A stretch of DNA of 64,000 nt, taken from contig NIVC01000652.1 in the NCBI GenBank assembly GCA_002269645.1, forward strand, positions 1 to 64,000, given 5' to 3'. Positions within the stretch are counted from its first letter, which is position 1. Each line of letters begins with the position of its first letter. Below, one piece after another: positions 40,790 to 41,776 of this stretch. A model generated the notes under the pieces. The model was given only the letters and a program-made list of their open reading frames with translations, was not told where the DNA came from and ran no database searches. Both the position numbers and the translations under genes were made by a program. This stretch comes from Macrostomum lignano (lineage: Eukaryota).

Positions 40790-41776
40790 ATGGCGGATCT
40801 CTACGAGTGTCTGGGAGTGCAGCTGTGGGCGTCTGCGGCACAGATTCGGAAAGCGTTCTACGGTCGAGCACGCGAACTGCACCCTGACAAGAGCGCAACA
40901 GAGGAGACGCGGAAGAGATTCCAGGAGTGCGAAGAGGCGTACCGAATACTGTCGTGTCCGTTCCTTAGAAAGCTGTACGATATCTTTGGAAATGCTGTTC
41001 GTGACCGGGATGAGATGCTTCGGCTCGCAGAAGGAATGTTAGAGGATGAAGACATGCCCGACGATCTCCGAGAAGAGATAGAAAGACTACAAGAGAGCGA
41101 CCGATTAGCTGAGGAGGCGTACGAGAGAGAACAGGCGAGGAGGGATGAGGAGCACGTCAAGATGGAGGCAAGTGAGGAGGCCTCAGACGATGAGCAGGAC
41201 GAAGAGATGAACGAGGCGAGTGAGACACTGCCGGAGGAGTACGAGGTCGAGAAGGTCTTAGGAGTACGAGTCACGGAGCGAGGAGCGGAGTATCTGCTGC
41301 AGTGGGCCGGTGTAGAGGAGCTTGAGACGTCATGGGAAGCGGAGGAAGATTGTGCCGGATGTAGAAACCTGATTGAAGAATACCTGCAGAGAGCGTACCG
41401 GCTTCAGACAAGACCGTGCCGACCAGTGACCGTCGCGGAACTGGAGAACGTAGGACCCAGTCGGAAGAAACTGCACCAGGCAATGCGGAAGGGCGACCCG
41501 TGGGGCATCTTTGAGGTGTTGCTAGCCCTGAAGGGGAAGTGCGCCACTGCCTCGGTGGATTTCAAGGAATTCGGTCCGGAGTTGATGCTGCAGATCCTGG
41601 GCTACTTGGAGCGAGACGGTCGCAAGTATCCGGGGCACGGAGTTCGTCGGTGGAGTCGCCAAGCGTGTCAAGCTGTCTACATGTCGGTGATGGTGGTGTT
41701 CCCGCTGTTCGACCTGCGACGCCAGGGTTTGGTCCTGGGTGCCCTCCGTAGGCTGTGGGATTCGTGCTCTGACTGA
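40790..41776 (+). CDS. Element 1 ORF3: DnaJ J-domain (HPD) + acidic linker + chromodomain + unknown C-terminal domain, 328 aa
   Basis: DLYECLGV...ASAAQIRKAFYGRARELHPDK...RFQECEEAYRILS...RKLYD (HPD at 40880-40888); EYEVEKVLGVR...EYLLQWAG...ETSWEAEEDC...LIEEY (about 41237-41386). Lies between pol stop and PPT, inside the LTRs. Confidence 0.92.
   Translation: MADLYECLGVQLWASAAQIRKAFYGRARELHPDKSATEETRKRFQECEEAYRILSCPFLRKLYDIFGNAVRDRDEMLRLAEGMLEDEDMPDDLREEIERLQESDRLAEEAYEREQARRDEEHVKMEASEEASDDEQDEEMNEASETLPEEYEVEKVLGVRVTERGAEYLLQWAGVEELETSWEAEEDCAGCRNLIEEYLQRAYRLQTRPCRPVTVAELENVGPSRKKLHQAMRKGDPWGIFEVLLALKGKCATASVDFKEFGPELMLQILGYLERDGRKYPGHGVRRWSRQACQAVYMSVMVVFPLFDLRRQGLVLGALRRLWDSCSD

What the first reader, a model, noticed from the sequence alone, without database searches (positions are those of the whole stretch)
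40790..41776. Retrotransposon accessory ORF fusing an Hsp70-recruiting J-domain to a chromodomain
Seen: an intact 328-aa ORF inside the LTRs, in the position usually held by env, with a complete HPD J-domain, acidic linker, chromodomain and a roughly 120-aa unknown C-terminal region. Established: chromoviral chromodomains are fused to the integrase C-terminus and guide integration; J-domains stimulate Hsp70 and are used by polyomavirus T antigens to remodel host complexes; host J proteins DNAJC2/ZRF1 and DNAJC9 act on chromatin or histones. Inference: the protein could bring Hsp70 to methylated chromatin to dismantle silencing complexes (anti-silencing factor), target integration in trans, or chaperone particle assembly. 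I know of no described J+chromo retrotransposon ORF.
Basis: partly seen in the sequence, partly recalled or inferred. Interest (0 to 1): 0.92.

Follow-up and report, generated by a model that had tools for sequence, protein, structure and literature searches.

The report
Flatworm retrotransposon's modular Hsp70-recruiting accessory gene
A group of flatworm jumping genes carries an extra, well-conserved gene that joins a chaperone-recruiting domain to swappable "address" modules (here a reader of silenced chromatin), which suggests they bring the host's Hsp70 machine to silenced DNA, though that function is untested.

Summary
Confirmed. The 328-aa ORF lies 99 nt after pol, inside a young Ty3/gypsy element of Macrostomum lignano (LTRs 597/598 identical, 4-bp target duplication). 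It has an HPD J-domain, an HP1-type chromodomain and a basic five-helix C-terminal domain (CTD). Its family has 17 full-length ORF copies and 19 distinct insertion flanks; dN/dS is 0.06-0.29 across four family pairs, the chromodomain included.

The finding is wider than reported. J + acidic linker + CTD is the conserved core in 11 ORF3 variants of this genome and 4 unnamed outside proteins. The chromodomain is a gain of one subclade. Other lineages carry a SUMO-interacting-motif-like sequence in the linker (9 of 10 versus 0 of 3 chromodomain members; pattern drawn after the fact), and one subclade adds a TatD-like domain.

Best reading (0.40): a nuclear adaptor that brings Hsp70 to SUMO- or H3K9me-marked silencing complexes. 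Against it: family A's methyl-lysine cage lacks its third aromatic, one expanding family has lost HPD, and no binding or expression was shown. Paper searches found no description, nor did the scan's earlier notes.

The parts
34772..34775 (.). left target-site duplication (CAAA)
   Evidence: repeated at 42870-42873
34776..35376 (+). 5' LTR (601 bp, TG...CA); no heat-shock element at up to 2 mismatches
35380..35397 (+). primer-binding site beginning TGG, 3 nt after the LTR
   Evidence: matching tRNA not identified
35485..36549 (+). gag (weak PNMA/Retrotrans_gag matches, two CCHC knuckles)
36465..39014 (+). pol, first frame: protease, reverse transcriptase, RNase H
38552..40690 (+). pol, second frame: integrase (H2C2, rve, p58_C), no chromodomain; pol is split by a frameshift in this copy
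40790..41776 (+). ORF3, 328 aa; ATG directly preceded by CAG (possible splice acceptor)
40796..40981 (+). J-domain, aa 3-64, HPD at aa 31-33
   Evidence: (J-domain structures Z 11.7, rmsd 1.6, 72 aligned)
40982..41233 (+). J extension (aa 65-103, shared by the ORF3 family) and acidic linker (aa 104-148, net -14); SIM-like motif absent here, present in non-chromodomain relatives
41240..41392 (+). HP1/Swi6/CBX-type chromodomain, aa 151-201; cage Y151, W172, V175; net -10
41420..41773 (+). C-terminal domain, aa 211-328: five helices, basic (+7; +12 to +16 in relatives), Gly/Arg-rich loop; defining domain of the ORF3 family
   Evidence: (pLDDT 85.9, pTM 0.80)
42260..42271 (+). polypurine tract
42272..42869 (+). 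3' LTR (598 bp)
42870..42873 (.). right target-site duplication (CAAA)

Best explanation
ORF3 is an element-encoded adaptor that aims the host Hsp70/Hsc70 machine at silenced chromatin, most likely to loosen the repression laid on the element's own copies. Shown: a conserved J-domain, an acidic linker and a basic helical CTD encoded after pol, with lineage-specific address modules (SIM-like motif in most lineages, HP1-type chromodomain in this one, TatD-like domain in another). Inferred step 1: ORF3 is made from a subgenomic, probably spliced RNA. Inferred step 2: the address module docks it on heterochromatin, either on SUMO-modified silencing proteins (SIM) or on H3 tails/H3K9me nucleosomes (chromodomain), and the basic CTD binds nucleic acid or a partner there. 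Inferred step 3: the HPD J-domain triggers Hsp70 ATP hydrolysis on a neighbouring complex and dismantles or remodels it, as the polyomavirus T-antigen J-domain and DNAJC9 deliver Hsp70 to bound clients.
For: Purifying selection in J, chromodomain and CTD: dN/dS 0.21/0.25/0.26 for A vs B, 0.06-0.29 in three more pairs, all 14 pN/pS bootstrap upper bounds below 1. Within family A, 26 synonymous vs 9 non-synonymous codon variants over 235/749 sites. HPD intact in 14 of 15 ORF3 sequences. The chromodomain's best solved relatives are Swi6, CBX1, CBX5 and HP1. Two unrelated modules that both point to heterochromatin occupy the same linker in largely exclusive lineages: strict SIM-like pattern in 9 of 10 non-chromodomain linkers and 0 of 3 chromodomain linkers, 0 of 5 acidic integrase tails and 3 of 145 unrelated proteins. 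The motif fits the published SIM description of a hydrophobic core plus acidic/phosphorylatable residues (PMC12751080, passages). SUMO is required for piRNA-guided transposon silencing in Drosophila (10.1101/533091 and PMC10363806, abstracts). J-domains deliver Hsp70 to histones (PMC8221569, abstract) and in SV40 T antigen (PMC11720896, passages). AG lies 0-1 nt before the ORF3 ATG in 5 of 6 families examined.
Against: Nothing was measured: no Hsp70 stimulation, histone, SUMO or DNA binding, or localisation. The cage's third aromatic is Val in family A and Leu in P0003; only family B has F/W/F. Two helix-II basic positions are Tyr/Gly in this J-domain (alignment to Ydj1). Family I has lost HPD and the SIM-like motif, yet 8 copies are 100% identical over 571 aa, so Hsp70 stimulation is not needed by every expanding lineage. 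The SIM pattern was defined from these same sequences. Of two later-found sequences, P0156 matches only the loose pattern (shuffle p 0.09) and family I does not match. The TatD-like module points to nucleic-acid handling rather than chromatin. Arabidopsis JDPs that read H3 tails promote compaction, not opening (10.64898/2026.09.14.751395, abstract). The SUMO-piRNA link is shown in flies and nematodes, not flatworms.
Confidence: 0.4

Rival explanations
1. Integration co-factor in trans: ORF3 binds the pre-integration complex through its CTD, tethers it to heterochromatin through the chromodomain or SIM, and uses Hsp70 to open the target nucleosome or strip the integrase after strand transfer.
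For: Chromoviral chromodomains guide integration to heterochromatin (passages of 10.64898/2026.05.21.726589). The integrase here has none of its own. The CTD is basic and conserved with pol across families whose RTs are 61-65% identical.
Against: The ORF3 5' part has been exchanged between lineages while pol stayed 92-93% identical at DNA level (family B loci), which fits poorly with a tight integrase partner. This copy sits about 4.5 kb from a host Intu-longin gene. Insertion-site chromatin was not tested.
Confidence: 0.2
2. Cytoplasmic co-chaperone of the particle: ORF3 binds element RNA or Gag through the basic CTD and recruits Hsp70 for particle assembly, uncoating or activation of reverse transcriptase; the other modules are secondary.
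For: J + basic CTD is the invariant core. One subclade adds a TatD-like fold with several catalytic positions changed. Hsp40/Hsp70 dependence of hepadnaviral RT is recalled, from no call.
Against: It does not explain selection on an HP1-type chromodomain (dN/dS 0.25) or the recurring SIM-like motif.
Confidence: 0.17
3. Decoy or self-restraint factor: ORF3 titrates Hsp70, SUMO or H3K9me sites away from the silencing machinery without catalysed remodelling, or conversely promotes compaction to cap copy number.
For: An HPD-less family has expanded recently. Families D and G have a second SIM-like stretch. Plant H3-reading JDPs promote compaction (abstract).
Against: HPD is kept in 14 of 15 sequences, and the J-domain is under purifying selection in all four pairs.
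Confidence: 0.18
4. Captured host fragments carried passively, or a host gene wrongly placed in the element.
For: Both named domains have host look-alikes. Two unrelated J + chromodomain proteins exist in public data.
Against: 17 full-length copies, 19 distinct flanks, LTR-bounded, dN/dS far below 1, and the same position after pol in 10 of 11 variants.
Confidence: 0.03

Closest known systems
Non-envelope ORF3 genes of Ty3/gypsy elements, e.g. bdelloid GDSL and DEDDy ORF3s (PMC5408684, passages)
   Same: Separate ORF between pol and the 3' LTR, family-specific, modular; that paper says such ORFs are typically expressed from spliced messages. A nuclease-like module occurs in both.
   Different: No DnaJ term in that paper. 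Here the core is a J-domain plus a CTD without a Pfam match, with exchangeable chromatin-address modules.
Chromoviruses and other chromodomain-bearing Ty3/gypsy elements (PMC13524379 and 10.64898/2026.05.21.726589, passages)
   Same: LTR element carrying a chromodomain; repeated independent gains of chromatin modules are documented.
   Different: Their chromodomain sits at the C-terminus of integrase/pol. Here it is in a separate ORF, is HP1-like, and is confined to one ORF3 subclade.
Polyomavirus T-antigen J-domain (PMC11720896, passages)
   Same: Parasite-encoded HPD J-domain at the N-terminus of a modular protein, followed by an acidic region and a downstream domain.
   Different: No LxCxE in 12 of 13 linkers (one LTCRE in P0033), no helicase; retrotransposon rather than DNA virus.
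Host chromatin J-proteins: DNAJC9 (PMC8221569, abstract) and Arabidopsis PKL-associated JDPs (10.64898/2026.09.14.751395, abstract)
   Same: J-domain joined to a histone-binding module.
   Different: No DNAJC9 HTH (PF23302) match in 10 of 10 ORF3 rows scanned; element-borne; different reader module.
VANDAL/VANC-type transposon anti-silencing factors (named in passages; details recalled)
   Same: Proposed role: element-encoded counter-silencing.
   Different: DNA transposons of plants acting on DNA methylation; no sequence relation tested.

Membership tests
Ty3/gypsy LTR retrotransposon | Paired LTRs with TG...CA, target-site duplication, PBS and PPT | tested here: met
Ty3/gypsy LTR retrotransposon | gag, then PR-RT-RH-INT order | tested here: met
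   (pol split over two frames in this copy)
Gmr1/Osvaldo, Mag or CsRN1 clade of M. lignano (PMC12801592) | Placement in an RT tree with reference elements | not tested
   No reference RTs at hand; RT/RH motifs resemble Osvaldo-like elements by recall only
Chromovirus | Chromodomain fused to the integrase C-terminus | tested here: not met
   No Chromo match in the integrase frame; chromodomain is in ORF3
env-bearing errantivirus | ORF3 with fusion-protein homology | tested here: not met
   Pfam gives only DnaJ and Chromo above cut-off; the model is a soluble helical protein
J-domain protein (class C) | J fold with HPD between helices II and III | tested here: met
J-domain protein (class C) | Stimulates Hsp70 ATPase | not testable with these tools
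   Needs an assay; two helix-II basic positions differ
HP1-type chromodomain | Sequence similarity to HP1/Swi6/CBX chromodomains | tested here: met
   Best solved matches Swi6 E 2.5e-10, CBX1 9.4e-10, CBX5 1.8e-9
HP1-type chromodomain | Three-aromatic methyl-lysine cage | tested here: not met
   Y/W/V in family A, Y/W/L in P0003; met (F/W/F) in family B and in 4 of 4 host HP1-like domains
SUMO-interacting motif (relatives only) | Hydrophobic core followed by acidic/phosphorylatable residues | tested here: met
   9 of 10 non-chromodomain linkers strict, 10 of 10 loose; absent from the window's protein; pattern drawn after the fact
SUMO-interacting motif (relatives only) | Binds SUMO | not testable with these tools
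   Needs a binding assay
Known fold family for the CTD | Structural match standing above generic helical bundles | tested here: inconclusive
HSE-bearing heat-induced LTR families of M. lignano | Canonical heat-shock element in the LTR | tested here: not met
   None at up to 2 mismatches in the 5' LTR

The most novel reading that the evidence does not exclude
A retrotransposon clade has evolved its own family of Hsp70-targeting adaptors: a fixed J + CTD chassis into which different readers of the host's silencing code (SUMO motif, HP1 chromodomain, inactive nuclease fold) are plugged and swapped by recombination, so that the host chaperone dismantles piRNA/SUMO/H3K9me silencing complexes on the element. 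That would be a chaperone-powered anti-silencing system encoded by an animal transposon.
Probability: 0.3. Interest if true: 0.9.

Novelty: new variant of a known kind. Interest (0 to 1): 0.76.

Why it matters
Few counter-silencing proteins of animal transposons are known (own knowledge), and the searches run here found no LTR element with its own Hsp70 co-chaperone. The family offers a natural comparison series on one chassis (chromodomain, SIM-like, TatD-like, HPD-less) in a transgenic model flatworm, so the question of whether and how an animal retrotransposon fights or exploits heterochromatin can be tested directly. Even if the anti-silencing reading fails, a selected J-domain gene spread over about seven lineages and an unclassified basic helical domain are new parts for the retroelement inventory.

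Tried and rejected
Expression: no run on record as RNA was listed; 14 of the 18 holders were only guessed to be RNA. In 4 such runs, all Logan contigs, no joint ended at the ORF3 start; one 5.8-kb contig ran from pol through ORF3. Contigs drop rare forms, so this says nothing on splicing or expression.

Complex prediction of host SUMO with the family-E linker (aa 141-190) gave no verdict (score 0.29, mark 0.34) and is not used either way.

CTD fold: no match at E <= 0.001 in BFVD or PDB. Best VIA-align Z was 8.2 (rmsd 3.4, 104 aligned, 5% identity), within the range of generic helical bundles. No usable Atlas hit (one search gave only J-domain clusters under 0.9). PDB sequence hits were designed helical proteins.

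Genomic context of outside relatives: metagenome scans gave nothing for P0033 and 48 J-domain-only loci for P0027; the viral scan gave nothing. So the element context of P0003, P0027, P0033 and P0156 is not shown.

Donor of the J-domain: a 76-row, 69-column tree split the 13 ORF3 J-domains into two groups with weak backbone support, and the one-clade test did not finish; no donor is claimed. Integrase and ORF3 trees of five families were too unresolved to test co-descent.

Heat-shock link: no HSE in the LTR; no PF00385 row among the heat-regulated transcripts of PMC12801592 supplement 2; the paper's family number for this element could not be identified. Rb-binding motif: 1 of 13 linkers, rejected. 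DNAJC9-type HTH: not matched.

Of 7 stretches read downstream of more distant RT hits, 1 held a full ORF3 relative, 1 a TatD-only remnant and 5 nothing; insertions may have moved the target out of range. The first within-family count failed (1 copy found) and was redone. One paper looked up by a recalled id was not held. The scan's earlier notes held nothing on this protein or genome and only unrelated accessory ORFs.

Full report
Observation. The stretch 40790-41776 is an open frame of 328 aa with Pfam DnaJ at aa 3-64 and Chromo at aa 151-201, both above cut-off. It begins 99 nt after the pol stop. It lies inside an element bounded by LTRs at 34776-35376 and 42272-42869 (597 of 598 aligned bases identical), with a CAAA target duplication, a primer-binding site and a polypurine tract. 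Domain order is gag, protease, RT, RNase H, integrase; pol of this copy is split over two frames and the integrase has no chromodomain. A near-identical protein is annotated as a hypothetical J-domain protein of Macrostomum lignano.

It is a real mobile gene. The genome search returned 137 matches (a lower bound; 122 of 247 candidates scored). The 17 best loci all hold an uninterrupted frame, 15 of 328 aa and 2 of 326 aa. Of 29 family-A loci, 23 showed the exact LTR end, with 19 different flanks. Across the 17 copies there are 26 synonymous and 9 non-synonymous codon variants against 235 and 749 sites. Between diverged families dN/dS is 0.21 (J), 0.25 (chromodomain) and 0.26 (CTD) for A vs B, and 0.06-0.29 in C vs C', E vs H and G vs G'. 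dS is near saturation (1.0-4.0 in most between-family segments, two undefined), so I also give pN/pS, whose bootstrap upper bound is below 1 in 14 of 14 segments, at most 0.99 for the A-B linker. Third codon positions differ most in 6 of 6 segments checked. A passive captured fragment is excluded.

The family is larger than the finding. Eleven ORF3 variants (A, B, C, C', D, E, H, F, G, G', I; about seven lineages) were read from the genome. Ten of them were seen directly behind an integrase end; for H the fetched stretches did not show it. RTs of A, C, D and E are 61-65% identical to each other. Four unnamed proteins from other data sets belong to the family: P0003 (76% identical), P0027, P0033 and P0156. 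All share a J-domain with a typical extension and a C-terminal domain of about 118 aa; the match of family I's CTD is weak (profile E 0.0004-0.0008). The CTD folds confidently into five helices (pLDDT 85.9) and is basic, +7 in A and +12 to +16 in C-F. The chromodomain is present only in A, B and P0003, which form one side of a branch in the CTD tree (100/100) and the J tree (88/87). A TatD-like domain is appended in G, G' and I, also one side of a branch (96/97 and 97/95). HPD is intact in 14 of 15 sequences and lost in I, which has 8 copies identical over 571 aa.

The modules. The chromodomain is HP1-like: best solved matches are Swi6, CBX1, CBX5 and HP1. Besides 31 ORF3 copies the genome search found 11 other chromodomains; I read 4 of them, one per group. 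They are HP1-like or related host genes with no J-domain upstream in frame. Capture from a host HP1-type gene is likely but not shown by a tree. The cage is Y/W/V in A, Y/W/L in P0003 and F/W/F in B, and the domain is more acidic than the host ones, so methyl-lysine binding by the window's protein is uncertain. In the lineages without a chromodomain the acidic linker carries a short hydrophobic run followed by Ser and acidic residues (for example IIISDDE in E and VVISDDE in G). A strict pattern finds it in 9 of 10 such linkers and 0 of 3 chromodomain linkers, a loose one in 10 of 10 and 1 of 3. Shuffle frequencies for the strict pattern were 0.0008-0.011; controls were 0 of 5 integrase tails and 3 of 145 unrelated proteins. 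The pattern was drawn from these sequences, so the figures are optimistic. Of two later sequences, P0156 fits the loose pattern (p 0.09) and I does not. The motif fits the published SIM description (PMC12751080, passages).

How it most likely works. Two unrelated modules that both address silenced chromatin occupy the same place in complementary lineages, next to a retained HPD J-domain. SUMO is needed for piRNA-guided silencing and SetDB1 recruitment in Drosophila (10.1101/533091, abstract; PMC10363806, abstract). J-domains deliver Hsp70 to bound clients in DNAJC9 (PMC8221569, abstract) and SV40 T antigen (PMC11720896, passages). I therefore read ORF3 as an adaptor that brings Hsp70 to silencing complexes on the element and loosens them (0.40). 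Every functional step is inferred. An AG 0-1 nt before the ATG in 5 of 6 families hints at a spliced subgenomic RNA. Against this reading stand the incomplete cage, altered helix-II residues, the HPD-less family, the TatD-like module, and plant H3-reading J-proteins that compact chromatin (10.64898/2026.09.14.751395, abstract). Rivals are integration targeting in trans (0.20), decoy or self-restraint (0.18), particle chaperoning (0.17) and passenger (0.03). ORF3 5' parts have been exchanged between lineages with near-identical pol, which fits an arms-race factor better than a fixed integrase partner.

Comparison with what is known. It is a Ty3/gypsy element but not a chromovirus and not env-bearing. 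It works like a non-envelope ORF3 (PMC5408684, passages) and recalls elements that gather chromatin modules (10.64898/2026.05.21.726589, passages; PMC13524379, passages). Six literature searches aimed at prior description (listings only) showed none. The M. lignano LTR paper PMC12801592 (part 1 of 6 read, term search of the text, supplement 1 whole, term searches of five supplements) and its preprint (passages) have no DnaJ, Hsp40, chromo or ORF term in the main text. PMC6338049 and PMC13524379 have no DnaJ term. Not seen: that group's earlier M. lignano LTR survey, the preprints' supplements, Repbase, Dfam, GyDB and most subscription journals, any of which may annotate this ORF. The J + chromodomain pairing also occurs in 2 unrelated proteins among the 150 best library hits.

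Verdict. A real, selected, apparently undescribed accessory gene family of a flatworm gypsy clade: a new variant of a known kind, with a modular design that makes its function testable. Interest 0.76. The bold reading, a chaperone-powered anti-silencing system of an animal transposon, has probability about 0.3 and would merit 0.9.

Noticed in passing
window 43073-53771: A second LTR element with 1075-bp LTRs that are 100% identical (43073-44147, 52697-53771). It has gag-like frames, then a weak viral fusion glycoprotein match (PF24664, E 5.6e-5, below cut-off) ahead of protease and RT: a gag-env-pol order like that described for flatworm errantiviruses. Its RT is 33-35% identical to the ORF3-bearing clade.
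   Followed up: partly
L114:619-2334 (G000:C1104); also L097, L103, L116: ORF3 relatives with a C-terminal TatD-like domain (PF01026 E 5.7e-5 in L114, 1e-6 in L116) in which several catalytic positions look changed. Family I (10 full-length copies at 96% or more) has also lost HPD; L116 keeps only the TatD part.
   Followed up: partly
L031, L041 (family B): Recombinant elements: gag/pol 92-93% and the ORF3 3' end 86-91% identical to family A at DNA level, but the ORF3 5' part only about 74% over a short stretch. ORF3 modules appear to be swapped between lineages.
   Followed up: partly
P0100 and P0133 (unnamed ENA and JGI records): Two unrelated proteins that also join a J-domain to a chromodomain, without the ORF3 CTD; single-member clusters, context unknown.
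   Followed up: partly
window 29295-30260: Host gene exon with Intu longin-like domains (PF19033, E 6.6e-12).
   Followed up: no
window 4045-about 7000 and 33351-34249: Tandem arrays with 66-bp and 53-bp periods.
   Followed up: no
window 35491-35581: Gag begins with a Gly-Gly-Ala-Ala repeat encoded by a 12-bp tandem unit.
   Followed up: no
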